Shown piece after piece: positions 22,370 through 31,688 of a stretch of 32,000 bases of DNA. The position numbers were made by a program, and so were the translations under genes. Source of the stretch: Gemmata obscuriglobus (lineage in GTDB: Bacteria; Planctomycetota; Planctomycetia; Gemmatales; Gemmataceae); the NCBI RefSeq assembly GCF_008065095.1, contig NZ_CP042911.1:8550001-8582000 (forward strand), read 5' to 3'. The notes under the pieces were generated by a model. It had not been told where the DNA came from, did not search any database, and saw only the letters and a program-made list of their open reading frames with translations. How positions within the stretch are numbered: the first letter of the stretch is position 1; each line of letters starts with the position of its first letter.

Positions 22370-23008
22370 CTACTGCGAGAAGTTCTTCTTGAAGTCGAGG
22401 TACGCGAGGTACATCAGCCCGCCGAGGATGAGGTAGCACACCATCGTCGCGGGTACGGACGGTGAGGCCAACTTCAGCGCGCTGCCGGCCGATGCCTTGA
22501 GTTTCGGTTTGATGCCGCGCCAGTCCACCGAATAAATCTCGTCCAGGATCAGGTGCGACAGGAACCCGACCATCACGCCCACGCCGAGGATGAACCGCAC
22601 CCCGCGGTCGGGGTACGCCAGGTACACGCACAGCCCCGCGATAAGCATGGCCGGGATGCTGTGGTACATCCCGCGGTGAACCGTGAACTGCTTGAACACG
22701 TTCGCGACGAAGTACCGGATGAACAGGTACGCGAACAGTAGCGTGGCGCAGATGCTCTCGAGCGGCATTCCCGCGTGCATCATGCGGCGGATGAAGAGCA
22801 TCGGCACGACCGCGGCCAGCAGCCCGAACATCTCGCGCACGGGCACCCCGGAGTCGCTGTCGAGGTCCGGGAGCATCCCGCCGACCGCGGTCACCCCGGC
22901 CGCCAGAATGCCCACTTCCGTGCTGAACCCGAGCGGCTGAACGGCGAACCCGCCGTAAGCGATGCCCAGCCCCCCGGACACCGTGATGTGCGTGCGGAAC
23001 CCGGCCAC
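22370..23008 (-). CDS. Membrane-bound metal-dependent hydrolase, YdjM/DUF457 family
   Basis: GFRTHITVSGG..., LPDLDSDSG, HRGMYHS and HLILDEI His/Asp motifs within a 5-6 TM protein. Confidence 0.8.
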   Translation of the reverse strand: MAGFRTHITVSGGLGIAYGGFAVQPLGFSTEVGILAAGVTAVGGMLPDLDSDSGVPVREMFGLLAAVVPMLFIRRMMHAGMPLESICATLLFAYLFIRYFVANVFKQFTVHRGMYHSIPAMLIAGLCVYLAYPDRGVRFILGVGVMVGFLSHLILDEIYSVDWRGIKPKLKASAGSALKLASPSVPATMVCYLILGGLMYLAYLDFKKNFSQ

Positions 23009-23165
23009 GCGTCGCCCTCCTTAACGGAGATACCCCAAACTGCCGAGCATCCTACCGCGCCCCGCCGGCGCCCGAAACTTCAGTTCGCGATACTGTAATT
23101 TTGTGCAACGGGCCTTGTGTACAGACGTTCCCTCTGAGTATGGTTTACTGAAAGGAGGACGCGAA

Positions 23166-23417
23166 ATGAACCCCACGAACGAAGTAATCGCCCAACGCCT
23201 GCGGAAGCACGCGAACGACCTGGCCCGGTCCGGCAGCAACTTGTACCGCGTCCGCGCGTTCCGGTCGGCGGCCATCGCGGTCATGGGCCTTCACGGCGAC
23301 GTGACAGAAATCGTCGCCAGCGGCGGCGTGCCGGCCCTCGAGCGCGTTCCGGGCATCGGCAAGAGCCTCGCGCTGACCATCGCCGAGTACGTTGTGGCGA
23401 ACGGCCTGGCCGCGTAA
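23166..23417 (+). CDS. Stand-alone helix-hairpin-helix protein resembling the N-terminal 8-kDa domain of family-X DNA polymerases
   Basis: NEVIAQRLRKHANDLARSGSNLYRVRAFRSAAIAVMGL...LERVPGIGKSLALTIAEYV follows the Pol X N-terminal pattern (N..IA..L...A.LLE..G.N.FRVRAYR.AA......L..LPGIGK..A.KI.E). ATG preceded by AAAGGAGGACGCGAA. No polymerase or PHP domain follows. Confidence 0.7.
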   Translation: MNPTNEVIAQRLRKHANDLARSGSNLYRVRAFRSAAIAVMGLHGDVTEIVASGGVPALERVPGIGKSLALTIAEYVVANGLAA

Positions 23418-23421
23418 CGCG

Positions 23422-25518
23422 CTAGCTGACGCCGTCCACGCGCACGCCGATCTCTTTGAGCGCCTCGCGGAACGCGGCGAGTTGGTCTTCGGCCACGCTC
23501 ACCGCCAGCGGGCCGAGGCGCTCGGCCACCAGCGCGCGGGTTCCGGGCCACTGCACCAACCCGTCTGCGATTTCGACCGTCGGCAACTTCACCACCAACA
23601 GGCGCTCCGCCCGGGGTTGTGAGAGTTGCGACCCGAGCAGCAGCAACCGGCCCGCGGCGGAGAGCGGAGAGCCGCTCCGCTCCAAGAACCACGCATCAAG
23701 CTCCGCCAACGTGCGCCCGCCCTCAACAGCCTTTCGCAGCGAGGTTGGTGTGAGCCGGAACCGCTGTACCCCGTTCTGCTCGATCGGCAGCGGCTCTGCG
23801 AACTGTTTGAGTTCCGCTTCGAGCAGCAGGTCTGCTTGCGGGCCGTCAACCGTGAGCGTGACGCCGTCGTCCGCCGGTGCGAGGCACCGCTGTGGCTTGG
23901 ATTCGTAGTCGCGGTTGCCGATCAGGCGCAGGTTCGAGAGCGACGGCTCGCGCCCGTCGGCGGTCATTCCGATGCGATCGGTGAGCCGCAGCACCACCAC
24001 CCCGCGCGCCACCGCGATGTCCAGTTCCGCGGGCGTCTGAAACTCGACCAACACCGCAGAAGCGAACGCGGTGATCCGCTCGCGCTTGCTGGCCCACCGC
24101 TGGAGCAGGTCCGCAACGCCCGCGGGCACGGGGCGCGTGCCGTGGCGGTTGAGCGTCTGCACGATCATCGGCAGCGTCAGCCCCGATTCCAGACCGCGGT
24201 AGGTCTGCTCTGGAGTGAGCTCGAGCGTGCAGGCGGGGCCGATCCCCTTCCACGCCGCGAACCGCGTGAGCGACGCGACCAGCGCCGGCGTCAGCCCCTG
24301 CCGGTACGCGAGGATCTCCGCGTTCGGCTGGACCATCAGCGTTTGCGGGAACGCCGGCGGAACCGGCGGCTCCGGGTCGCCGAAGAGCAGGTGCCGGCCG
24401 AGGCCAGAGAGTCGAACGAGTTCGCCCGACACCTCCACAATTCCTAGCGAATACGCGACGCCGAGCAGGTAACCGCGGACCCAACCGGCGCCTTTATCAC
24501 TCGCGGCGTCGGGCGGGATCACACCGGCCCACGACGGGTGGTGCGACCACAGCCACTCCGCGACCGCATCCGGGTGAACGAAGTCGCGCGCCAGGAGCAG
24601 ACTGAGGAGGCCGGCGGTCGGGGTCGGCGAGAGCCCGTTCTCGGTTGGCGCGTAGCCGGTCAGCGGGTCCCACGGCTCCACGAGCGGGAGCGCCCGCATC
24701 AGTTGCCCGAGCAGAGGGAGCAGCGGCCCCTCCCAGGTTGCCGGGAACGGGTCGGCCTCGAGCGCCCCGCCGCGCTCGGCGAGCAGCTCGACGGCTCGCG
24801 CCCACAGCAGGGCAAGCACCCCGGCGTCGGCGACGAGCGCGATCTGATCGACCGGTGGCGCGGCCAGCACCGCGTCTCCCTGGAGCCGCAGCAGGTCGCG
24901 CTTGAAGAGGGTGTGGCCCTGCGTGAGCCGCACCGGCTCGTTCTGAACCTGTTGCCAGGCCGCCGCGAGGCGTAGCGGCCATTCGAGGCCGTCGGCCTGG
25001 CGCGGGCTACCGACTTCGTCGTCCGGGTTCGTGAGGTCCGGGAGTTCCAGGTTTTCGCCCCGCGCGCGGAGCGCGACGCCCGGGTGCGCGAACACGACCG
25101 CGTTGTGCGTGCCTGCCAGCCCGAACCACGCCGCGAAGTCCTCGACGGGCGGCTCGTCCGTGCCGCGGTCGGGGAAGAGCAGGGCGGTCTCGAGCAGAGC
25201 CTGAACCGGTGTGAACCCGTCGTTGTGGTCGAGGGCCGCAAGGAGCGTGAGAAGGTGGCCGACCTTCCACCGCGGCTGGCGGCTCAGCCCCATGAACGCG
25301 AGCACCTTGCGCGCGGCCGGGGGCTGCTCCTTGATGCGCCGGTCGATGACCGGCGCGTTGGTGACCATCGCGACGGATTTCTCGATCAGCTCTTCGACGG
25401 GCAGCTTGGACCGCGGGCGGACGAGCTTGTCGCCCACCGCGCGCAAAAGGGTCTCGCTGTACCCCAGAAGGGCATCGCGGCAGCGTTCGGACCAGTCGGT
25501 GTCGGAGGTCTGGGGCAT
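23422..25518 (-). CDS. XPB helicase-associated protein (698 aa) containing XPB-N-terminal-domain-like modules
   Basis: QTLMVQPNAEILAYRQGLTPALVASLTRFAAWKGIGPACTLELTPEQTYRGLESGLTLPMIVQTLNRHGTRPVPAGVADLLQRW aligns by eye with the XPB N-terminal domain of the helicase at 26855-28690 (FIVQSDRSVLVEV...FAELEKSPEHIHTYRISNLSLWNAAAAGFSADEVVGVLQKYTKFPIPQNI). A second, weaker copy follows. Same strand as XPB. Confidence 0.8.
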   Translation of the reverse strand: MPQTSDTDWSERCRDALLGYSETLLRAVGDKLVRPRSKLPVEELIEKSVAMVTNAPVIDRRIKEQPPAARKVLAFMGLSRQPRWKVGHLLTLLAALDHNDGFTPVQALLETALLFPDRGTDEPPVEDFAAWFGLAGTHNAVVFAHPGVALRARGENLELPDLTNPDDEVGSPRQADGLEWPLRLAAAWQQVQNEPVRLTQGHTLFKRDLLRLQGDAVLAAPPVDQIALVADAGVLALLWARAVELLAERGGALEADPFPATWEGPLLPLLGQLMRALPLVEPWDPLTGYAPTENGLSPTPTAGLLSLLLARDFVHPDAVAEWLWSHHPSWAGVIPPDAASDKGAGWVRGYLLGVAYSLGIVEVSGELVRLSGLGRHLLFGDPEPPVPPAFPQTLMVQPNAEILAYRQGLTPALVASLTRFAAWKGIGPACTLELTPEQTYRGLESGLTLPMIVQTLNRHGTRPVPAGVADLLQRWASKRERITAFASAVLVEFQTPAELDIAVARGVVVLRLTDRIGMTADGREPSLSNLRLIGNRDYESKPQRCLAPADDGVTLTVDGPQADLLLEAELKQFAEPLPIEQNGVQRFRLTPTSLRKAVEGGRTLAELDAWFLERSGSPLSAAGRLLLLGSQLSQPRAERLLVVKLPTVEIADGLVQWPGTRALVAERLGPLAVSVAEDQLAAFREALKEIGVRVDGVS

Positions 25519-25543
25519 CGAAATGTTGTATGGCGAAGGCGGC

Positions 25544-25771
25544 TTATTTCCCGACCACTTGCGGGGTGTGTCCCATCTTGCGAAGCTCTTCGAGCACCGA
25601 ATCGAGCCGCCCGGGGCGGATGAGCAGCACCTTTTCCGAGAGCCGCCCGGCGACCTCGGCGGAGAGCTTCTTCCGCGCGAGCAACTCCTCGGCCAGCACC
25701 GCGTCTTCGGTGAGAACGAGGCACACGCGGCGGTGCAACTTGGCGGGCAGGCGAGCGGTCGGGTTGGTCAT
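25544..25771 (-). CDS. Small (75-aa) protein paralogous to the C-terminal domain of the 698-aa helicase-associated protein
   Basis: Ungapped by-eye alignment of RRVCLVLTEDAVLAEELLARKKLSAEVAGRLSEKVLLIRPGRLDSVLEELRKMGHTP with ERLLVVKLPTVEIADGLVQWPGTRALVAERLGPLAVSVAEDQLAAFREALKEIGVRV shows about a quarter identities and a matching hydrophobic pattern. ATG at 25771. An alternative TTG at 25813 would give 89 aa. Confidence 0.6.
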   Translation of the reverse strand: MTNPTARLPAKLHRRVCLVLTEDAVLAEELLARKKLSAEVAGRLSEKVLLIRPGRLDSVLEELRKMGHTPQVVGK

Positions 25772-25814
25772 TGGAAAACTAAACCGTGAAACGTGGTCGG
25801 TTGTCTTGGACAAG

Positions 25815-26813
25815 TTAAGTCACTATGCAGTGGCCCAGACGCATCATCAGAACAAGCCAGAGCATCGTTGCGCTGTCACCACCGGTAGCAGACACCGTAA
25901 GTTCGATTACACCCGCGGCCCCCTGACGGGCCTTGAGCTTTGCCTCCGGCATCGTCCATTCGGCTTTAGTGGCTTTGAGCGCACCTTCGGCACTCGACAG
26001 GTAGCGGATGTGCGCGGTGCTTCCGGAATCGGCGTCGAGCCAGAAGGTGAAGCCAACGGCTTTCGCGTCGCTCCCGCCGGGGGCAATCGGCGAGGTCGGG
26101 TCCTCTTTGGCAAAGTCCGCCTGATAGTGCCGAATCGCCCAGACACGCGCCTTGGAGTTAACATGCTTCCATTCGGGAAGGTGATTCGGAAGGGCGCGTG
26201 TAGCGGGCTTCTTGTCGATGCGCCTTAATGTCTCTTCGAGATATTTTTGGTTCGTCGCGCAGATCAAAACGTTTGGCAGTGGCCGGCAGACGAAATAGGA
26301 CCACGTTGCGTCTTCGGTAAATACGGCTACCTTGAACCCGGCCAACTCGATCGTCTTATTTGCCTTGTTTTGGCACTCCTGGACGCTTTTCTTGAGAGTC
26401 GCGTCCGCTTCGCTGTCGAACTGGAAAATGTGACAGCCTTCGTAAGGCATCAGCCCGAACTCTTCCGGCTTTGTGAAGCGGCGGCTGCCCTCGACAACAC
26501 ACAGTACCGTTTGCTCGGCTAACAACTCTCCGAGCAGGCCATCTTTTAAGGTAAAGAGCGGCAGGGATGGCATGTGTTGGACTAAATCTGCAAAGCTTAC
26601 TTGTTTGTCGCTTTCCACTTTTTGGCTTGGGATTTTAAAGCCAGTCGGCGCGACAATAAGGGTTTCTGTGTCTTCGGGTAGCCACTCCAAGAAAACTTCC
26701 CATCGGGCCGGCGCAGGTGCGCGCGGGACCGGCGCCGCAGACGTTTCTTTCGGTGTCACGCAGGCGGTGAGACCGAAAAGAGCGAAAGCAAGGCCGAGAT
26801 GCCGACAGAACAT
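25815..26813 (-). CDS. Lipoprotein of unknown function (332 aa), compositionally AT-richer than its neighbours
   Basis: ATG at 26813 is preceded by GGGAG-N7. MFCRHLGLAFALFGLTAC has a lipobox (L-T-A-C). The sequence is visibly less GC-rich than the flanking genes. No domain recognised. Confidence 0.7.
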   Translation of the reverse strand: MFCRHLGLAFALFGLTACVTPKETSAAPVPRAPAPARWEVFLEWLPEDTETLIVAPTGFKIPSQKVESDKQVSFADLVQHMPSLPLFTLKDGLLGELLAEQTVLCVVEGSRRFTKPEEFGLMPYEGCHIFQFDSEADATLKKSVQECQNKANKTIELAGFKVAVFTEDATWSYFVCRPLPNVLICATNQKYLEETLRRIDKKPATRALPNHLPEWKHVNSKARVWAIRHYQADFAKEDPTSPIAPGGSDAKAVGFTFWLDADSGSTAHIRYLSSAEGALKATKAEWTMPEAKLKARQGAAGVIELTVSATGGDSATMLWLVLMMRLGHCIVT

Positions 26814-26854
26814 CCGCACGCTCCCATGCGCCCCGTTCGTCATTCCTTGACGCC

Positions 26855-28690
26855 CTAACACGTAGCCGATTTCGGCGGGATCACGTCGCGCTCGTCGAGG
26901 ATCTCGTAGCTGTAGCCTTGCTCCGTCAGGAACATTTGGCGGTGGTGGGCGAAGTCGAGTTCGCGGGTGTCGCGCGTCACCAGCGTGAAGAAGTGCGCCT
27001 CGCCGTCGCCGCTGCTCTTGGGGCGCAGGATGCGCCCGAGGCGCTGCGCCTCCTCCTGGCGCGAGCCGAACGTGCCGCTCACCTGGATCAGCACGTTCGC
27101 GTCAGGCAGGTCGATCGCGAAGTTCCCCACCTTGCTCAGCACCAGGTGCCGGACATCGCCGCGGCGGAACTTGCCGTACAGGTCTTCGCGCTCGGCGTTG
27201 CCGGTGCTGCCCGTAATCATCGGGATCTCGAACCGCTCGCTCAGCCGCTTCAGTTGCGAGAGGTACTGCCCGATCACGATCACCCGCTGGTCGTGGTACC
27301 GCTTCAGCAGCTCGGCCACGACCTCGTCCTTGGCGACGTTCTCGCTGGCGATGCGGTACTTGGCCCGGTGGTCGGCGACCGCGTACTCCATGCGGGTGGA
27401 GTCGGTCGGCAGTGCGACGCGGATCTCGCTGCAACTGGCGGACGCGATCCAACCCTTCGTTTCCAGCTCGCGCCAGGGCACGTCGTATTTCTTCGGGCCG
27501 ATGAGCGAGAACACGTCGCCCTCGCGGCCGTCCTCGCGGATGAGCGTGGCCGTGAGCCCGAGCCGGCGCCGGGCCTGGATCTGCGCCGTGACGCGGAACA
27601 CCGGGGCCGGGAGCAGGTGGACCTCGTCGTACACGATGAGGCCCCAGTCCCGCTGCTCAAACAGCCCGAAGTGCGGGAACGCCTCGGTCTTGTCCGGGCG
27701 GTAGGTGATGATCTGGTACGTCGCCACCGTCACCGGCCCGATGTCCTTCGTTTCGCCGGTGTACTCCTTCACCTCGTCTTCGGTCAGCGTGGTCTTGTCG
27801 ATGATCTCGCGGCGCCACTGCTTCACCGCGGTGATGCTGGTGGTGAGTACGAGCGTGTTCTTCTGGAGCAGGCACATGGAGGCGATGCCGACAACGGTTT
27901 TCCCGGCGCCGCACGGGAGCACGATCACCCCGCTGCCGCCGCGCACGTCGCCGCCCGCGTGGAACACGTCGGCGGCCTCGCGCTGGTAGTCTCGCACCCG
28001 GAACGGGACGCCGCTCGCCGCGGTCTCGCGCAGCTCCATCGGCAGCATCGCGCCTTCGGTGTACCCTGCGATATCTTCCGCCGGGTAGCCCACCGTGATG
28101 AGCGCCTGTTTCAGCACGCCGCGGAACGCCGGGGAGACCCCATACGTCGTGTCGTCGATCTTGTCGCCGAGGAACTCTTTAACCTTCTTGTTGCGGGCCA
28201 GTTCCGCCAAGAGCGGCTTGTCGGGGCACACGAGCTTGAGGTGCTCGGCGTCGATGCGTTCGAGCTTGACGCGGCCGTACCGCGACACCGTTTCCGCGAT
28301 GTCGGTGGGGATGTTCTGCGGGATCGGGAACTTGGTGTACTTCTGGAGTACGCCGACCACCTCGTCCGCGCTGAACCCCGCGGCGGCGGCGTTCCAGAGG
28401 GACAGGTTCGAGATCCGGTACGTGTGGATGTGCTCGGGACTCTTCTCGAGTTCCGCGAACGGCGCGATGGCGTCGCGCGCCTCCGTGTACTTGGGGTTGT
28501 CTACCTCCACCAGCACGGACCGGTCCGATTGCACGATGAACGGGTTCGTCGGATCGAACGTCATTGGGGCCGCCGGCGCGGGCGCAGCTTTCGTGATCTT
28601 CGGCGGCATTGTCACCGTCGGGGTGGGGTCCGCCGGCACTCCGCCCGGCGCGAACATCCCATAGTAACGGCGCGCGCCGCGCAGCGACAA
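26855..28690 (-). CDS. XPB/Ssl2 (ERCC3, Rad25)-type superfamily-2 DNA helicase
   Basis: Damage-recognition-like N-terminal domain, Walker A LPCGAGKT, DEVH box, the XPB-specific RED motif (LIREDGRE), and helicase motifs V/VI (QEEAQRLGRILR). The true start is probably downstream of 28690 (ATGs at 28657, 28609, 28564). MTFDPTNPFIVQSD at 28564 resembles the start of other bacterial XPBs. Confidence 0.9.
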   Translation of the reverse strand: MSLRGARRYYGMFAPGGVPADPTPTVTMPPKITKAAPAPAAPMTFDPTNPFIVQSDRSVLVEVDNPKYTEARDAIAPFAELEKSPEHIHTYRISNLSLWNAAAAGFSADEVVGVLQKYTKFPIPQNIPTDIAETVSRYGRVKLERIDAEHLKLVCPDKPLLAELARNKKVKEFLGDKIDDTTYGVSPAFRGVLKQALITVGYPAEDIAGYTEGAMLPMELRETAASGVPFRVRDYQREAADVFHAGGDVRGGSGVIVLPCGAGKTVVGIASMCLLQKNTLVLTTSITAVKQWRREIIDKTTLTEDEVKEYTGETKDIGPVTVATYQIITYRPDKTEAFPHFGLFEQRDWGLIVYDEVHLLPAPVFRVTAQIQARRRLGLTATLIREDGREGDVFSLIGPKKYDVPWRELETKGWIASASCSEIRVALPTDSTRMEYAVADHRAKYRIASENVAKDEVVAELLKRYHDQRVIVIGQYLSQLKRLSERFEIPMITGSTGNAEREDLYGKFRRGDVRHLVLSKVGNFAIDLPDANVLIQVSGTFGSRQEEAQRLGRILRPKSSGDGEAHFFTLVTRDTRELDFAHHRQMFLTEQGYSYEILDERDVIPPKSATC

Positions 28691-28730: not shown

Positions 28731-30101
28731 TCACTTGTCCGTTCGCCCCGGGAGGGCCGGGACCGGCATCAGCCCCGGCGCGAGCCCCGGCGGGAACGTC
28801 GTCGGCTGGTCGTTGATGAAGACCAAACCCGGTCCGCGCCGCTGGTAGGTCAGGTCGGTTCCGTACCGGCCCAGCAGGCTCTCGCCGGGGCCGATGCACG
28901 GCGGGGTCGAGCGCCACGCCTCTTTCGCAGCGGCGAGGCGGTACCCCTCGTTAAACATCTCGGTCATCGGCCCGCGCTCGAACGCGGTGCTCGACGTCGG
29001 CGCCGGGAAGTCGCCGGGGATGGCCGCGAGGTGGTAGTTCATGCCCGTGACGAGCGCCATCAGGTACATGCGCTGGAGGTCGCCCCGGGTCTGGGCGTAG
29101 ATCACCGACGAGACGCTGCTGGCCGCGATCGTGAGCGACCGCTGCTTCAGCGGGGTCGCGTCCGCAAACAGCTTGCCCGCGACGATCATGTACAGGTCCA
29201 CGCCGACGAGGTCGGGGCCTTGTTTCGTGCGCTGTTCGGGCGGGACGAACGGCGGGCGGAAGAAGATCGACACCGTGGTGCCGCCGTCCCCGTGCTCCTC
29301 GACGTAGGTCTTGCCGTCCACGGTCACGGGGATCTTCGACGGGGGGAAGAACCCCGGGATCGCGGACGACCCGAGCAGCACCTTCTTGATCAGCAGGCGG
29401 TCGCCGGCGGTCCCGCGGTTGGCGATTTCGCCGATGTCCCAGAACACGAACCGCTTGCTCTCGAGTTCCGTGGTGCCGATGTACAGGCGGCGGCCCTTGC
29501 GGTGCTCCGCGGCGATCCGGCACACGACGTCCGGTGTGAGCACCTGTTCAACCAACTCCGCGAGCGGCCCGTTGTCGGCCAGCGCGAGGCTGAACAGCCC
29601 GCGCACCGGGCGGAGCGTGTAAACGTCCTTCTTTTCGATAGTGGTGTAGAACCGCTGGATCTGCGGGTCGTATTCGGGGCCGAGGAAGGCGAGCGGGGCG
29701 ATCAGCGCGCCTGTGCTGATGCCGGTGACGACATCGAAGTTGGGGCGGCCGTTGGTACCGGGGCGGTCGCCGCTCGCGGTCCAGCCGACGAGCACGCCGG
29801 CGGAGTACGCGCCGTAGGAGCCGCCCCCGGAGAGGCACAGCACCGACCGCCGCCGGGCGGCCTGTTCGGGTGTCGGCTTCTGTTTCAGCGATTCGGCCCG
29901 CGCGTACGCGGCCTCGTTCCCTCCGAGTTCGTCGGCGTCCATCTGGCCGCGAACGTCAACGAGGTCGTTAGTGCCTAACCCGGACCGAACCGGCGATCGG
30001 GCCTTCCGGAGCGAGCCGGTTTCGGTTTGGCACCCGATCAGCGCCCCGGCGAGGAGTGCGAGTGCGGCCGCGGAACCGGGCCGGAACGCGCGACGAGACA
30101 T
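28731..30101 (-). CDS. Patatin-like phospholipase, predicted lipoprotein
   Basis: LSGGGSYGAYSAG (GGGxxG oxyanion), GISTGA (GxSxG) and HGDGG (catalytic Asp). From the ATG at 30101: MSRRAFRPGSAAALALLAGALIGC with lipobox L-I-G-C. The track start at 30110 is a TTG. Confidence 0.9.
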   Translation of the reverse strand: MSRRAFRPGSAAALALLAGALIGCQTETGSLRKARSPVRSGLGTNDLVDVRGQMDADELGGNEAAYARAESLKQKPTPEQAARRRSVLCLSGGGSYGAYSAGVLVGWTASGDRPGTNGRPNFDVVTGISTGALIAPLAFLGPEYDPQIQRFYTTIEKKDVYTLRPVRGLFSLALADNGPLAELVEQVLTPDVVCRIAAEHRKGRRLYIGTTELESKRFVFWDIGEIANRGTAGDRLLIKKVLLGSSAIPGFFPPSKIPVTVDGKTYVEEHGDGGTTVSIFFRPPFVPPEQRTKQGPDLVGVDLYMIVAGKLFADATPLKQRSLTIAASSVSSVIYAQTRGDLQRMYLMALVTGMNYHLAAIPGDFPAPTSSTAFERGPMTEMFNEGYRLAAAKEAWRSTPPCIGPGESLLGRYGTDLTYQRRGPGLVFINDQPTTFPPGLAPGLMPVPALPGRTDK

Positions 30102-30108
30102 GTGCAAC

Positions 30109-30154
30109 AAACCTCCCTGGCCGGCGGGACGGAAGTCCCGCGAGCCGGAGGTTT
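30109..30154 (-). promoter_or_regulatory. SD-sequestering hairpin in the patatin 5' leader
   Basis: The minus-strand RNA reads AAACCUCC-ggcuc-GCGGGAC-uucc-GUCCCGC-cggccag-GGAGGUUU-guugcac-AUG. An 8-bp outer helix pairs the SD (GGAGG) with an upstream anti-SD, and it stacks on a 7-bp inner helix. Confidence 0.5.
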
Positions 30155-30481: not shown

Positions 30482-30541
30482 CTTGCTTACACGAGGGAAC
30501 GTGGCTATGTGGGGCGCCTTCTCGCAGCCAGGAAGGTACCC

Positions 30542-31688
30542 ATGTCTCCTTGCACCCTGGTCGATGCCCTGGCGGCGGTTCCCGATCCCCGCAGCAAGCA
30601 CGGCCTTATCCACCCACTCGCCCCCTTCCTCGGACTCGTCGCCCTCGCCATGCTCATGGGGCGCACCAGCCTCAATGGCATCGCTCGCTTCGGGCGACAG
30701 CACGGACCCGCCCTCGCCCATGCCCTCGGCTTCCGACGCGGCAAGACCCCGGCCGTTTCCACGCTCTCCCGCACCCTGCGACGCTTCGACGCCGACCAAC
30801 TGGAGCACGTCCTCTCGTACTGGATCGCCAGCCGCGTCGACCCGGCCGCCTTCACACACATCTCCATCGACGGCAAGACCCTTCGAGGCTCTCGCAACGG
30901 CGCGATCCCCGGTCAGCACCTGCTGGCCGCATACGCCCCCACCGTCGGTGCCGTACTCGCCCAGGTCAAGGTCGATGCGAGCACCAACGAGCACAAGGCC
31001 GCCTTGACGCTCCTCGGCATTCTGCCGCTGCGAGGGAAGGTCGTGGTCGGCGACGCCATGTTCTGCCAGCGAGACCTGGCCGAGGAGGTGGTCGGGGCCG
31101 GCGGCGACTACGTGCTCACGGTGAAGGACAACCAACCCGGATTGGGGATCGACATCCGAGCCGGGTTCGCCTTCGAGACCGCCGCCCGATCGATCGCGGC
31201 GGCCACTTCCCCCTGGGGATCGGCCTCCGCCCGCCCCGAGCCGCATCGCCACGACCGTCGATAAGGGTCACGGCCGCATCGAGAAGCGGACGCTGCAAAC
31301 GACCTCGATTCTGACGTGCTCGCCGACGTGGGCGGGGGTGAAGCAGGGCTTCCAGTTGACGCGTGAGCGGACGGTCCGAGGCCAAACGACGGTCGAAGTG
31401 CATTTCGGCATCACGAGCCTGTCGGCCGAGAAGGCGGATGCGGCCACACTCCTGAACCATGTGCGGACGCACTGGCGCATCGAGAACGAACTGCATTACG
31501 TGCGTGACGTGACACTGGGCGAGGACGCGTGTCGTGTGCGCATGGGGCACGCACCACAGGTGCTGGCGGCGCTGCGGAACGCCGTGGTGCACCTGTGGCG
31601 TGAGGTCAAGGCGGTGAGTTGCCCGGAGGCGATCGAGCGGCTCCAGATGGACCCGGCAATGGCCAAGGGACTTATCGGAGTTACGTAG
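30542..31688 (+). pseudogene. ISAs1-family DDE transposase interrupted by one frameshift
   Basis: N-terminal PDPRSKHG...HPLAPFLGLVALAMLMG (DDE_Tnp_1-associated type), ISIDGKTLRGS and VVGDAMFCQRD in the first frame (stop at 31262-31264). TTVDKGHGRIEKR ... HWRIENELHYVRDVTLGEDACR continue in the next frame (ends 31688). The shift must lie upstream of about 31250. A C5/G4 homopolymer pair sits at 31209-31218. Confidence 0.8.

What the first reader, a model, noticed from the sequence alone, without database searches (positions are those of the whole stretch)
23422..28690. XPB helicase operon with a p52-like partner and a p8-sized paralogue of the partner's C-terminal domain: candidate bacterial mini-TFIIH core
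Four co-oriented genes are separated by short gaps (roughly 40, 40 and 25 nt). (1) An XPB/Ssl2 helicase (Walker A, DEVH, RED motif, N-terminal DRD-like domain). (2) A lipoprotein gene. (3) A 75-89-aa protein. (4) A 698-aa protein. By eye, the 698-aa protein contains at least one clear copy of the XPB N-terminal domain fold sequence (QTLMVQPNAEILAY...TLELTPEQTYRGLESGLTLPMIVQTLNRHGTRPVP versus XPB FIVQSDRSVLVEV...HTYRISNLSLWNAAAAGFSADEVVGVLQKYTKFPIP). The small protein aligns without gaps to the last roughly 57 residues of the 698-aa protein. In eukaryotic TFIIH, established structural work shows that XPB's N-terminal domain is clasped by a similarly folded domain of p52/Tfb2. It also shows that the p52 C-terminal domain heterodimerises with the roughly 70-aa p8/Tfb5, which shares its fold and stimulates XPB ATPase. 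The same three-part logic appears here in a bacterium: helicase, a large partner with an XPB-NTD-like module, and a tiny paralogue of the partner's C-terminus. To my knowledge bacterial XPB partners are functionally uncharacterised. The TFIIH analogy is my inference.
Basis: partly seen in the sequence, partly recalled or inferred. Interest (0 to 1): 0.8.

Follow-up and report, generated by a model that had tools for sequence, protein, structure and literature searches.

The report
Bacterial XPB–p52–p8 helicase operon

Summary
Four co-oriented minus-strand genes encode XPB, a lipoprotein-like ORF, a 75-aa protein and a 698-aa protein. The organism is Gemmata obscuriglobus.

- **698-aa protein.** It is a full-length structural homologue of TFIIH p52/Tfb2. 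The AF2 model has pLDDT 94. The top 20 Foldseek PDB hits are all p52/Tfb2, E down to 9e-9 over 510-560 aligned columns. Its family profile hits Tfb2/p52 in the PDB at E 1.6e-4 to 9e-4. It carries an XPB-NTD-like "clutch" (Pfam Helicase_C_3, E=1.6e-16).
- **75-aa protein.** It is real, with more than 2000 homologues. It has a beta-alpha-beta-beta-alpha fold. It is a paralogue of the 698-aa protein's last 59 residues (hhalign 95%, E about 1e-8, gapless). Its family profile's best natural PDB match is yeast Tfb5 (E=1.5e-3).
- **Conservation.** XPB, small and big genes are contiguous in Planctomycetota, Deinococcus, Acidobacteriota and others.
- **Lipoprotein gene.** It is a lineage-specific insert, not part of the module.
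- **New details.** The clutch-plus-p8-like unit is tandemly duplicated inside the big protein. The p8-like module also matches XPB's DRD-like region.

No other TFIIH subunits are present, so this is the XPB sub-module, not a mini-core. Complex formation and function remain untested. My literature searches found no prior description.

The parts
26855..28564 (-). XPB/Ssl2-type SF2 DNA translocase/helicase. The maximal ORF extends to 28690; the likely start is M43 at 28564, giving 569 aa.
   Evidence: NCBIfam NF045503 scores 863 bits. Pfam finds Helicase_C_3, ResIII and ERCC3_RAD25_C. Against the PDB it scores 280-299 bits to eukaryotic XPB and 129-142 bits to archaeal XPB.
28157..28540 (-). XPB N-terminal domain (Pfam Helicase_C_3, residues 51-178 of the 611-aa ORF). 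In TFIIH this is the domain that pairs with the p52 clutch.
   Evidence: The role in TFIIH is from Greber 2019, PMC6422496.
28085..28240 (-). DRD-like beta-alpha-beta-beta-alpha module of XPB (about residues 151-202 of the 611-aa ORF). It is homologous to the small protein.
   Evidence: hhalign of the small family against an 83-sequence XPB alignment gives probability 95.5%, E=1.4e-8. Weak HMM hits fall in the same place in many XPBs.
25815..26861 (-). Lipoprotein-like ORF (signal peptide plus lipobox). It is a lineage-specific insertion in the operon and not part of the conserved module.
   Evidence: No Pfam or NCBIfam family. No homologue in 82 XPB loci. Gemmata sp. JC673 has a 345-aa gene in the same position; homology to the window ORF was not tested. 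The slot holds Trypsin_2 in L001 and an unrelated gene in L084.
25544..25771 (-). 75-aa p8/Tfb5-like protein (beta-alpha-beta-beta-alpha).
   Evidence: 2189 homologue clusters, 81-99% identical within Gemmataceae. Orthologues occur in Deinococcus and Acidobacteriota. AF2 pLDDT is 79.7. The family profile's top PDB hits are Tfb5 at E=1.5e-3. It is a paralogue of the big protein's residues 638-696.
23422..25518 (-). 698-aa p52/Tfb2-like partner (annotated 'helicase-associated domain-containing protein'; GobsT_72410).
   Evidence: AF2 pLDDT 94, pTM 0.79. Top 20 Foldseek hits are p52/Tfb2, E=9e-9 to 2e-4. Profile against the PDB hits Tfb2 at E=1.6e-4 and p52 at about 9e-4.
24349..25518 (-). N-terminal helical/winged-helix-like array of the big protein (residues 1-390). 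It corresponds to the p52 N-terminal region in the Foldseek alignments.
   Evidence: Alignments span 510-560 columns of 420-460-residue p52 chains.
24079..24339 (-). [quoted passage not shown]
   Evidence: Pfam Helicase_C_3 E=1.6e-16. It aligns to Tfb2 337-405 and p52 306-424.
23884..24069 (-). First p8-like module (residues 484-545). It is the positional equivalent of the p52 C-terminal domain and has lower model confidence.
   Evidence: The motif lPaaVvdalrtWaskReRl...LlEF aligns with Tfb2 433-467. hhalign small 12-55 to big 484-523 gives E=6e-5. pLDDT is 68-89.
23614..23883 (-). Second, partial clutch-like domain (residues 546-635).
   Evidence: Internal repeat: residues 568-679 align to 415-523, hhalign probability 96.3%, E=1.9e-9. 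Pfam reports a second Helicase_C_3 stretch.
23431..23607 (-). Second p8-like module (residues 638-696). It is the paralogue of the 75-aa protein.
   Evidence: hhalign probability 95-96%, E about 1e-8, 59 gapless columns. The model shows beta-alpha-beta-beta-alpha at 640-689. 3dom_B (Tfb5/Tfb2C complex) matches with TMt 0.73, rmsd 2.4 A.

Best explanation
This is an operon-encoded bacterial counterpart of the XPB-p52-p8 translocase sub-module of eukaryotic TFIIH.

**Shown by computation**
- XPB has the eukaryote-type N-terminal domain plus a DRD-like module and two RecA domains.
- The 698-aa protein is a remote but full-length homologue of p52/Tfb2. It has an N-terminal helical/winged-helix array followed by two tandem copies of [clutch domain + p8-like module]. 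The second clutch is partial.
- The 75-aa protein is a free-standing p8-like module.
- The three genes keep the order XPB-small-big, tightly spaced or overlapping, across several phyla.

**Inferred by analogy with solved TFIIH structures**
- The big protein's clutch forms a pseudo-symmetric beta-sheet dimer with the XPB NTD.
- The small protein heterodimerises with one of the big protein's p8-like modules.
- Together they cradle XPB's second RecA domain. That would stabilise XPB and stimulate or gate its dsDNA-dependent ATPase/translocase, which opens DNA.
- The most likely cellular role is DNA repair or damage processing.

The lipoprotein gene is a passenger.
For: **XPB**
- Identity.
- It is much closer to eukaryotic XPB (280-299 bits, full-length including the NTD) than to archaeal XPB (129-142 bits).

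**Big protein as a p52 homologue**
- The AF2 model is confident: pLDDT 94.
- The top 20 Foldseek PDB hits are exclusively p52/Tfb2, E from 9e-9, 510-560 columns. XPB-NTD chains come next, and Tfb5/p8 entries match the terminal module.
- The 93-sequence family profile hits Tfb2 at E=1.6e-4 and human p52 at E about 9e-4. This includes the clutch-to-CTD junction motif. XPB scores only E about 2.
- An acidobacterial relative (L035) that lies after XPB and a small gene scores 39.9 bits on Pfam Tfb2, above the 34.5 gathering score.

**Small protein**
- It is as conserved as XPB and more conserved than the big protein: 86% versus 85% and 64% identity between the window and L001.
- Fold is beta-alpha-beta-beta-alpha.
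- Profile against the PDB: the top five hits are all yeast Tfb5, E=1.5e-3, 48 columns. That score (21.7 bits) is the same size as a yeast Tfb5 fragment gets against human p8 (about 22 bits).
- Paralogy to the big protein's C-terminal module: E about 1e-8.

**Linkage**
- XPB-small-big are contiguous in 16 loci and small-big-XPB in one. These come from Planctomycetota, Deinococcus, Acidobacteriota, a Troglogloeales MAG and an unclassified bacterium.
- A big partner lies within 8 kb of XPB in about 47 of 82 loci, spanning at least 8 phyla.
- It is the only neighbour family conserved across phyla.

**TFIIH architecture used for the analogy**
- Greber 2019, PMC6422496.
Against: - No interaction was tested.
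- The Gemmata big protein itself does not reach Pfam Tfb2. Only 2 of 29 relatives hit it, at E>=0.013.
- No member of the small family hits Pfam Tfb5 or Tfb2_C even at E<=10.
- Foldseek of the small model gives no significant hit. p8/Tfb5 chains sit at ranks 5, 6 and 14 and below, among many other small alpha/beta folds, all at E>=0.08.
- The Tfb5 profile hit (E=1.5e-3) is only about tenfold better than the artefactual de novo TIM-barrel hits. It does not extend to human or Chaetomium p8.
- The profile of the big protein's own C-terminal module does not find Tfb2C or Tfb5.
- The architecture differs from p52: duplicated clutch/p8 units and a longer N-terminus. Pairing could therefore be intramolecular, or could involve XPB's DRD.
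- Many XPB loci lack the small gene (Actinomycetota, Cyanobacteria, Bacillota). About 35 of 82 show no big partner nearby.
- No functional data exist for any bacterial member. Mycobacterium tuberculosis XPB is an active helicase on its own (PMC3353954).
Confidence: 0.72

Rival explanations
1. The big and small proteins arose by duplication of XPB's own N-terminal NTD+DRD unit within bacteria. The resemblance to p52/p8 would then reflect that shared building block rather than orthology with the TFIIH subunits. The proteins may work differently, for example as DNA- or damage-binding adaptors that do not clasp XPB.
For: - The small family matches XPB's DRD-like region as strongly as it matches the big protein's C-terminus: E=1.4e-8 against E=1.2e-8.
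- The clutch is a Helicase_C_3 domain, like the XPB NTD.
- There is an internal tandem repeat.
- Actinobacterial big partners carry a WYL domain.
- Pfam Tfb2, Tfb5 and Tfb2_C are not reached by the Gemmata proteins.
Against: - Foldseek ranks full-length p52/Tfb2 (510-560 columns, including the N-terminal region that XPB lacks) far above XPB chains (160-200 columns).
- The family profile hits Tfb2/p52 at E about 1e-4 but XPB only at about 2.
- One relative passes Pfam Tfb2.
- The clutch-to-CTD junction motif is shared with Tfb2.
- The two readings are not exclusive. p52 and p8 may themselves derive from such a duplication.
Confidence: 0.15
2. The three genes form a helicase-based conflict or defence system, or a mobile-element-associated system, rather than a housekeeping repair factor. 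XPB would be the motor and the partners would be sensors.
For: - XPB shows generic similarity to the defence helicases PbeA/HmaA.
- The Deinococcus copy sits on a 430-kb plasmid next to transposases.
- There is a variable gene slot inside the Gemmataceae operon.
- A split transposase lies about 2 kb upstream in the window.
- WYL domains are present on actinobacterial partners.
Against: - No PADLOC family matches the small or big protein, or the lipoprotein ORF. The XPB hits are generic helicase-core matches.
- Flanking genes are ordinary: patatin, HAD hydrolase, YdjM.
- Sequence conservation is high, and synteny is stable within Micromonospora and Gemmata. That is unlike typical defence islands.
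Confidence: 0.06
3. The small ORF is not a partner subunit. It would instead be an unrelated small regulator, or a mis-annotated YaiI/DUF2336-like fragment that merely travels with the operon.
For: - There is a sub-threshold Pfam DUF2336 hit (E=2e-4, 21 bits against a 34.6 cut-off) in 13 of 42 members.
- JGI names a few copies 'YaiI (UPF0178)'.
- Foldseek is non-specific.
Against: - DUF2336 is hit by only 13 of 42 members, always below the cut-off. DUF188 is hit by 2 members at E>=0.14.
- Profile-profile homology to the big protein's C-terminus and to the XPB DRD is strong: E about 1e-8.
- The position between XPB and the big gene is conserved across phyla.
- In the Chloroflexota locus L024, a closely small-like module ends a Helicase_C_3 protein. 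This is a fusion that links the two.
Confidence: 0.04

Closest known systems
XPB-p52-p8 sub-module of eukaryotic TFIIH (human ERCC3/GTF2H4/GTF2H5; yeast Ssl2/Tfb2/Tfb5)
   Same: - The helicase has the same NTD-DRD-RecA1-RecA2 layout.
- The partner has the p52 fold along its length, with a clutch domain homologous to the XPB NTD followed by a p8-like module.
- There is a separate protein of about 70 aa with the same beta-alpha-beta-beta-alpha fold as the partner's C-terminal module.
   Different: - It is encoded as a bacterial operon.
- No XPD, p62, p44, p34 or CAK is present.
- The partner is longer (698 against about 460-510 aa) and carries two clutch-plus-p8-like units.
- Sequence similarity is remote: 13-16% identity in the Foldseek alignments.
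- The small subunit is missing in many bacterial lineages.
- Assembly and stimulation of XPB are untested.
Archaeal XPB-Bax1 helicase-nuclease complex
   Same: An XPB-family motor is paired with an adjacent, co-transcribed partner gene. A role in DNA repair is presumed (PMC13024598).
   Different: - The partner here has no nuclease family match and is p52-like, not Bax1/XPG-like.
- Bax1 binds XPB's ThM/HD2 region, not an NTD (PMC13024598). Balasingham 2012 (PMC3353954) notes that A. fulgidus XPB lacks the N-terminal domain that bacterial and eukaryotic XPB share.
- Gemmata XPB scores roughly half as well against archaeal XPB as against eukaryotic XPB.
Actinobacterial XPB (M. tuberculosis Rv0861c) with its neighbouring 'helicase-associated domain' protein (Rv0862c type)
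   Same: The helicase family is the same. The partner belongs to the same Helicase_C_3-containing family and lies adjacent to XPB (L046, L082 and other actinobacterial loci).
   Different: - In Actinomycetota the partner lies upstream of XPB.
- It has one clutch plus one p8-like module and ends in a WYL domain.
- No free small gene was detected.
- Published work characterises only the helicase and states that p52 and p44 homologues are not found in bacteria (PMC3353954).
- That Rv0862c belongs to this family rests on my own knowledge of the M. tuberculosis gene order. It was not tested here.

Membership tests
XPB/Ssl2/Rad25 helicase | Scores above the curated cut-off of the XPB equivalog model | tested here: met
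   NCBIfam NF045503 scores 863.1 bits against a cut-off of 610. TIGR00603 rad25 scores 355.9 against 328.7.
XPB/Ssl2/Rad25 helicase | Walker A, DEVH (motif II) and the RED motif; N-terminal Helicase_C_3 domain | tested here: met
   GAGKT, DEVH and LIREDGRE are read in the translation. Pfam Helicase_C_3 covers residues 51-178 at E=3.3e-37.
p52/Tfb2 (TFIIH subunit 4) | Pfam Tfb2 (PF03849) above the gathering score | tested here: not met
   The Gemmata protein has no hit at E<=1. Of 29 relatives, 2 hit at E>=0.013. The acidobacterial relative L035 does pass, at 39.9 against 34.5 bits. L041 and L024 reach E about 1e-3.
p52/Tfb2 (TFIIH subunit 4) | Overall fold and domain order of p52 (N-terminal winged-helix array, clutch, C-terminal dimerisation module) | tested here: met
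   The top 20 Foldseek PDB hits are all p52/Tfb2: E from 9e-9 to 2e-4, probability 0.99-1.00, 358-560 aligned columns (at least 510 for 16 of them). TM-scores are low (0.13-0.30), as expected for a flexible multidomain protein.
p52/Tfb2 (TFIIH subunit 4) | Clutch domain homologous to the XPB NTD, followed directly by the p8-like C-terminal domain | tested here: met
   Helicase_C_3 covers residues 394-504. The profile aligns to Tfb2 337-405 and 433-467 and to p52 306-424. hhalign of the small family to big 484-523 gives E=6e-5.
p52/Tfb2 (TFIIH subunit 4) | Binds the XPB NTD and stimulates XPB ATPase; the N-terminus binds p34 | not testable with these tools
   No multimer prediction or biochemistry was available. 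No p34-like or vWA gene is in the window.
p8/Tfb5/TTD-A (TFIIH subunit 5) | About 70-aa single-domain protein with a beta-alpha-beta-beta-alpha split fold | tested here: met
   75 aa. The AF2 model (pLDDT 79.7) has E17-20, H24-37, E40-43, E48-51 and H56-65.
p8/Tfb5/TTD-A (TFIIH subunit 5) | Sequence-family membership (Pfam Tfb5 PF06331, or a significant match to solved Tfb5/p8) | tested here: inconclusive
   No Pfam Tfb5 hit in any of 42 members at E<=10. The family profile's top five PDB hits are yeast Tfb5, E=1.5e-3 to 2.5e-3 over 48 columns. Human and Chaetomium p8 are not hit. With the merged profile, Tfb5 remains the top natural hit at E about 0.02. Foldseek places p8/Tfb5 chains at ranks 5, 6 and 14, at E about 0.3-0.4 and TMt 0.57-0.61; the search has no significant hit.
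p8/Tfb5/TTD-A (TFIIH subunit 5) | Shares its fold and ancestry with the C-terminal domain of its p52 partner | tested here: met
   hhalign of small against big 638-696 gives probability 95-96%, E=1.2e-8 to 3.1e-8, with no gaps.
p8/Tfb5/TTD-A (TFIIH subunit 5) | Forms a pseudo-symmetric heterodimer with the p52 C-terminal domain | not testable with these tools
   This needs multimer modelling or experiment.
TFIIH core complex | Presence of XPD, p62, p44 and p34 alongside XPB, p52 and p8 | tested here: not met
   No such families occur among the window's other genes. No conserved neighbour family other than the big partner was found across 82 XPB loci. The rest of the genome was not searched.
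Archaeal XPB-Bax1 | Adjacent Bax1 (XPG-like) nuclease partner | tested here: not met
   No nuclease family was found on any operon protein. The partner's fold matches p52.

The most novel reading that the evidence does not exclude
The XPB-p52-p8 translocase module of TFIIH is not a eukaryotic invention. It exists as a widespread, operon-encoded three-protein machine in bacteria, whose XPB is far closer to the eukaryotic enzyme than archaeal XPB is. The eukaryotic module may therefore have a bacterial rather than archaeal source. In addition, p8, the p52 C-terminal domain and XPB's DRD-like domain would be one domain family. p52 would then be, in essence, a helicase-less duplicate of XPB's N-terminal NTD+DRD unit.
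Probability: 0.45. Interest if true: 0.88.

Novelty: new variant of a known kind. Interest (0 to 1): 0.78.

Why it matters
- **Open question.** A 2026 review still calls the function of bacterial XPB "elusive" (PMC13024598). [quoted passage not shown]
- **A testable model.** A conserved bacterial XPB-p52-p8 operon gives the field a minimal system. It can be expressed recombinantly and manipulated genetically. It could show how p52 and p8 clasp and tune XPB. Those are the subunits mutated in XP/CS/TTD (XPB) and TTD-A (p8).
- **Candidate partners.** It supplies immediate candidates for bacterial XPB studies in Mycobacterium, Deinococcus and Gemmata.
- **Evolution.** It bears on where the TFIIH translocase module came from, because archaeal XPB pairs with Bax1 instead.
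- **Domain relationships.** The link found here between p8, the p52 CTD and the XPB DRD-like module also suggests how the module was built by duplication.

Tried and rejected
- **BLASTP of the small protein against the big protein.** No relevant alignment.
- **Ungapped shuffle test.** Pairwise evidence alone is insufficient.
- **A first shallow hhalign.** Neff 1.3, probability only 5.5%, P=0.007. Diverse sequences were needed.
- **Single-sequence phmmer of both proteins against the PDB.** Nothing for the big protein; only E about 0.7 noise for the small protein.
- **The search for related loci with big-family alignments.** It failed twice for lack of a conserved 7-10-residue stretch. I used an XPB alignment instead.
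- **Profile of the big protein's C-terminal module against the PDB.** It hit only de novo designed TIM barrels, by summing four idealised beta-alpha repeats. I treat this as an artefact. Merging it with the small family did not improve the Tfb5 hit.
- **Foldseek of the small model.** Not specific.
- **PADLOC.** No defence family for the partners.
- **DUF2336 and YaiI/DUF188 labels for the small protein.** Rejected as sub-threshold, with partial coverage.
- **Promoter and terminator scan.** No more sites than expected from shuffles, so uninformative.
- **Neighbourhood clustering across 82 loci.** No further conserved partner such as a nuclease, XPD or vWA protein. Only lineage-specific synteny and ABC-ATPase noise.
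- **Seven literature searches.** No description of bacterial p52/p8 homologues. The library lacks most subscription-journal papers, so prior description cannot be excluded.

Full report
**What is in the sequence**

The window comes from Gemmata obscuriglobus. The 698-aa product is 100% identical to GobsT_72410, which sources name "hypothetical protein" or "Helicase XPB/Ssl2 N-terminal domain-containing protein". Four ORFs lie head to tail on the minus strand:

| Gene | Window coordinates | Notes |
|---|---|---|
| XPB | 26855-28690 | Maximal ORF. Orthologues start at the equivalent of M43, nt 28564. |
| Lipoprotein-like ORF | 25815-26861 | Signal peptide and lipobox MFCRHLGLAFALFGLTAC from M17. 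|
| Small ORF | 25544-25813 | Conserved form is 75 aa from the ATG at 25771. |
| 698-aa ORF | 23422-25518 | |

With those starts the gaps are about 41, 43 and 25 nt. A consensus scan found no more terminator-like sites than shuffled sequence gives, so co-transcription is inferred from spacing only.

XPB is unambiguous. NCBIfam repair_heli_XPB scores 863 bits against a cut-off of 610. Pfam finds Helicase_C_3, ResIII and ERCC3_RAD25_C. GAGKT, DEVH and RED are visible in the translation.

**The large protein is a p52/Tfb2 homologue**

- Pfam finds only Helicase_C_3 (the XPB N-terminal domain family) at residues 394-504, E=1.6e-16, with a second weaker stretch. BLASTP against the XPB N-terminus gives E=0.001.
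- The exhaustive representative search found 1181 relatives. I aligned 93 diverse ones as A1.
- The A1 profile, searched against all PDB sequences, hits yeast Tfb2 at E=1.6e-4 and human p52 at E about 9e-4. The match covers the clutch domain and the junction into the C-terminal domain (lPaaVvdalrtWaskReRl... against LPPTVVDQIRLWQLELDRV...). XPB/Rad25 itself scores only E about 2.
- AlphaFold2 with A1 gave a confident model: pLDDT 94, pTM 0.79.
- In Foldseek against the PDB, the top 20 hits are all p52/Tfb2 chains from TFIIH structures: E from 9e-9 to 2e-4, probability 0.99-1.00, 358-560 aligned columns. Sixteen of them align over at least 510 columns, which is essentially the whole of p52. XPB chains follow, aligned only over 160-200 columns. 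Tfb5/Tfb2C and p8 entries (3dom, 1ydl) match a terminal module with TMt up to 0.73.
- TM-scores for full p52 are low (0.13-0.30). That is expected for an elongated multidomain protein with different inter-domain angles.
- The Gemmata protein does not reach Pfam Tfb2. The acidobacterial relative in L035, which sits after XPB and a small gene, scores 39.9 bits against the 34.5 gathering score. Two others reach E about 1e-3.
- I therefore treat p52 homology as well supported but remote.

**The small protein**

- It is a real gene. There are 2189 clusters of homologues, 81-99% identical among the 120 listed, most of them 75-76 aa.
- Between the window and the Gemmataceae MAG L001 it is 86% identical. 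XPB is 85% and the big protein 64% over the same distance.
- Clear orthologues sit between XPB and the big gene on a Deinococcus taeanensis plasmid (...LEALRKAGHLPKVVGP against ...LEELRKMGHTPQVVGK). They also occur in Acidobacteriota and a Troglogloeales MAG.
- With a 42-sequence, three-phylum alignment (A5), hhalign gives probability 95-96% and E=1.2e-8 to 3.1e-8. The alignment covers small 14-72 against big 638-696 without a gap.
- The AF2 model (pLDDT 79.7) is beta-alpha-beta-beta-alpha. The same element order appears at 640-689 of the big protein's model.
- The A5 profile's top five PDB hits are all yeast Tfb5, E=1.5e-3 to 2.5e-3. They cover profile positions 27-74 against Tfb5 7-54.
- For scale, a yeast Tfb5 fragment finds human p8 with the same score, about 22 bits, E about 1e-3.

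Caveats on the p8 link:
- No Pfam Tfb5 or Tfb2_C hit.
- Foldseek of the small model is non-specific. p8/Tfb5 chains rank 5, 6 and 14 at E about 0.3-0.4.
- Profiles containing the big protein's C-terminal module attract de novo designed TIM barrels. This is an artefact of summed idealised beta-alpha repeats.
- I rate the direct p8 homology as probable rather than proven. The paralogy with the partner's C-terminus I regard as firmly supported by the profile-profile comparisons.

- Residues 568-679 of the big protein repeat residues 415-523: hhalign probability 96.3%, E=1.9e-9. The protein therefore carries two tandem [clutch + p8-like] units.
- The first p8-like module (about 484-545, lower pLDDT) is the positional equivalent of the p52 CTD.
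- The small family also matches the region of XPB just after its NTD, the DRD-like module. Against an 83-sequence XPB alignment the result is probability 95.5%, E=1.4e-8. Weak single-HMM hits fall at the same place in dozens of XPBs.
- So XPB's NTD+DRD, the partner's clutch+CTD units and the free small protein appear to be built from the same two modules.

**Distribution**

- A scan of one genome per GTDB species with an XPB alignment returned 80 loci. They come from Planctomycetota, Chloroflexota, Cyanobacteria, Gemmatimonadota, Acidobacteriota, Bacillota, Actinomycetota and others.
- HMM searches of all stop-to-stop ORFs show a big partner within 8 kb of XPB in about 47 of 82 loci.
  - It lies downstream in Planctomycetota, Deinococcus, Acidobacteriota, some Chloroflexota and Bacillota MAGs.
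  - It lies upstream in Actinomycetota and Cyanobacteria.
- A free small gene is present in 17 loci. It is next to the big gene wherever that gene is on the contig, usually with tiny gaps or overlaps. No free small gene was detected in Actinomycetota, Cyanobacteria or Bacillota.
- Actinobacterial partners have one clutch plus one p8-like module and a C-terminal WYL domain.
- In the Chloroflexota locus L024, a module close to the free small proteins ends a Helicase_C_3 protein. This fusion ties the small module to this protein family.
- All-against-all clustering of neighbours found no other family conserved across phyla.

**The lipoprotein gene is a passenger**

- It has no homologue in the 82 loci.
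- Gemmata sp. JC673 has a 345-aa gene with no Pfam family in the same position. Its homology to the window ORF was not tested.
- The same position holds a Trypsin_2 protease in L001 and an unrelated 342-aa protein in L084. It is empty in most loci.

**Mechanism**

[quoted passage not shown] The p52 CTD dimerises with p8, and together they cradle XPB RecA2 (Greber 2019, PMC6422496). p52 stimulates XPB ATPase (cited in PMC3353954).

By homology and gene linkage, I propose the same arrangement here. The clutch would pair with the XPB NTD, and the small protein would pair with a p8-like module of the big protein. The result would be a stabilised and activated dsDNA translocase that opens DNA, most likely in repair.

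These steps are inference. Nothing here tests binding. The duplicated units allow alternative pairings, such as module 1 with module 2, or the small protein with the XPB DRD.

Gemmata XPB is much closer to eukaryotic XPB (280-299 bits, full length) than to archaeal XPB (129-142 bits). That makes the analogy with TFIIH more apt than the analogy with XPB-Bax1.

**What it is not**

- No XPD/DinG, p44/p34 (vWA) or p62 relatives are in the window. "Mini-TFIIH core" should be narrowed to the XPB-p52-p8 sub-module.
- No PADLOC defence family matches the partners.

**Novelty**

- Seven full-text searches found no paper describing bacterial p52 or p8 homologues.
- A 2026 review calls bacterial XPB function elusive and mentions only Bax1 as a prokaryotic partner.
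- Databases label the big protein only as "helicase-associated domain-containing". One relative passing Pfam Tfb2 means a database-level hint exists.
- The library omits most subscription journals, so an earlier description cannot be excluded.
- I class this as a new variant of a known kind, of high interest to people working on TFIIH, NER and eukaryogenesis.

Noticed in passing
window 25815-26861; L001 6794-7639; L084 4712-5740; L083 4692-5729: The position between XPB and the small gene is a variable slot in Gemmataceae. It holds a lipoprotein-like ORF in G. obscuriglobus and a 345-aa gene in the same position in Gemmata sp. JC673 (homology not tested). It holds a Trypsin_2 protease in one MAG and an unrelated 342-aa protein in another. 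It is empty in most other loci.
   Followed up: partly
window 23103-23417 (+) and 22370-23008 (-); L083 8102-8353 and 8511-9149: A stand-alone 104-aa HHH_8 protein (helix-hairpin-helix domain, Pfam PF14716) converges on the big gene, ending 5 nt from its stop. A YdjM-family membrane protein follows. Both are also adjacent in Gemmata sp. JC673. Whether the HhH protein works with the XPB module is unknown.
   Followed up: partly
L046 4081-6558; L082 5558-7867: Actinobacterial big partners, which lie upstream of XPB, end in a WYL domain. They have a single clutch plus one p8-like module, and no free small gene was detected. This suggests a ligand- or nucleic-acid-sensing variant of the same system.
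   Followed up: partly
L046 2974-3393 (-) and 18 other loci (17 labelled Actinomycetota, plus L073): A conserved cold-shock-domain protein of about 130-170 aa (GKVKWYD...GFGF motif plus a C-terminal helical extension) lies near the big partner on the opposite strand in 19 loci.
   Followed up: no
L024 9527-11842 and 11782-13695; L048 9717-12023 and 11983-14367: These Chloroflexota loci have two big-partner paralogues in tandem after XPB. The first (L024, 772 aa) ends in a module that resembles free small proteins more than other big-protein C-termini do (E=2.5e-8). It looks like a fusion or split form of the Gemmata architecture.
   Followed up: partly
XPB residues about 151-202 of the 611-aa ORF (window 28085-28240), and the same region in other XPBs: The p8-like small-protein profile matches XPB's DRD-like module (hhalign probability 95.5%, E=1.4e-8). 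This implies that p8, the p52 CTD and the XPB DRD may be one domain family. I found no statement of this in the papers read.
   Followed up: partly
L004, L012, and Pseudonocardiaceae loci L065-L072, L074, L077, L080: Some XPB genes, including two in Gemmataceae, have neither the big nor the small gene within 8 kb. The partners may be elsewhere in the genome or absent.
   Followed up: no
window 30509-31264 and 31338-31688 (+): A DDE_Tnp_1 transposase is split into two ORFs, probably a frameshifted IS element. It lies about 2 kb upstream of the operon, beyond a patatin-like phospholipase gene (28731-30110).
   Followed up: no
PDB entries 6yqx, 7p12, 6wvs, 6z2i: Profiles containing the big protein's C-terminal beta-alpha motif (eRLGPtalaV...L..Lr.aL) score E about 1e-13 against de novo designed TIM barrels by adding four repeats. 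This is a trap for anyone running the same search.
   Followed up: yes
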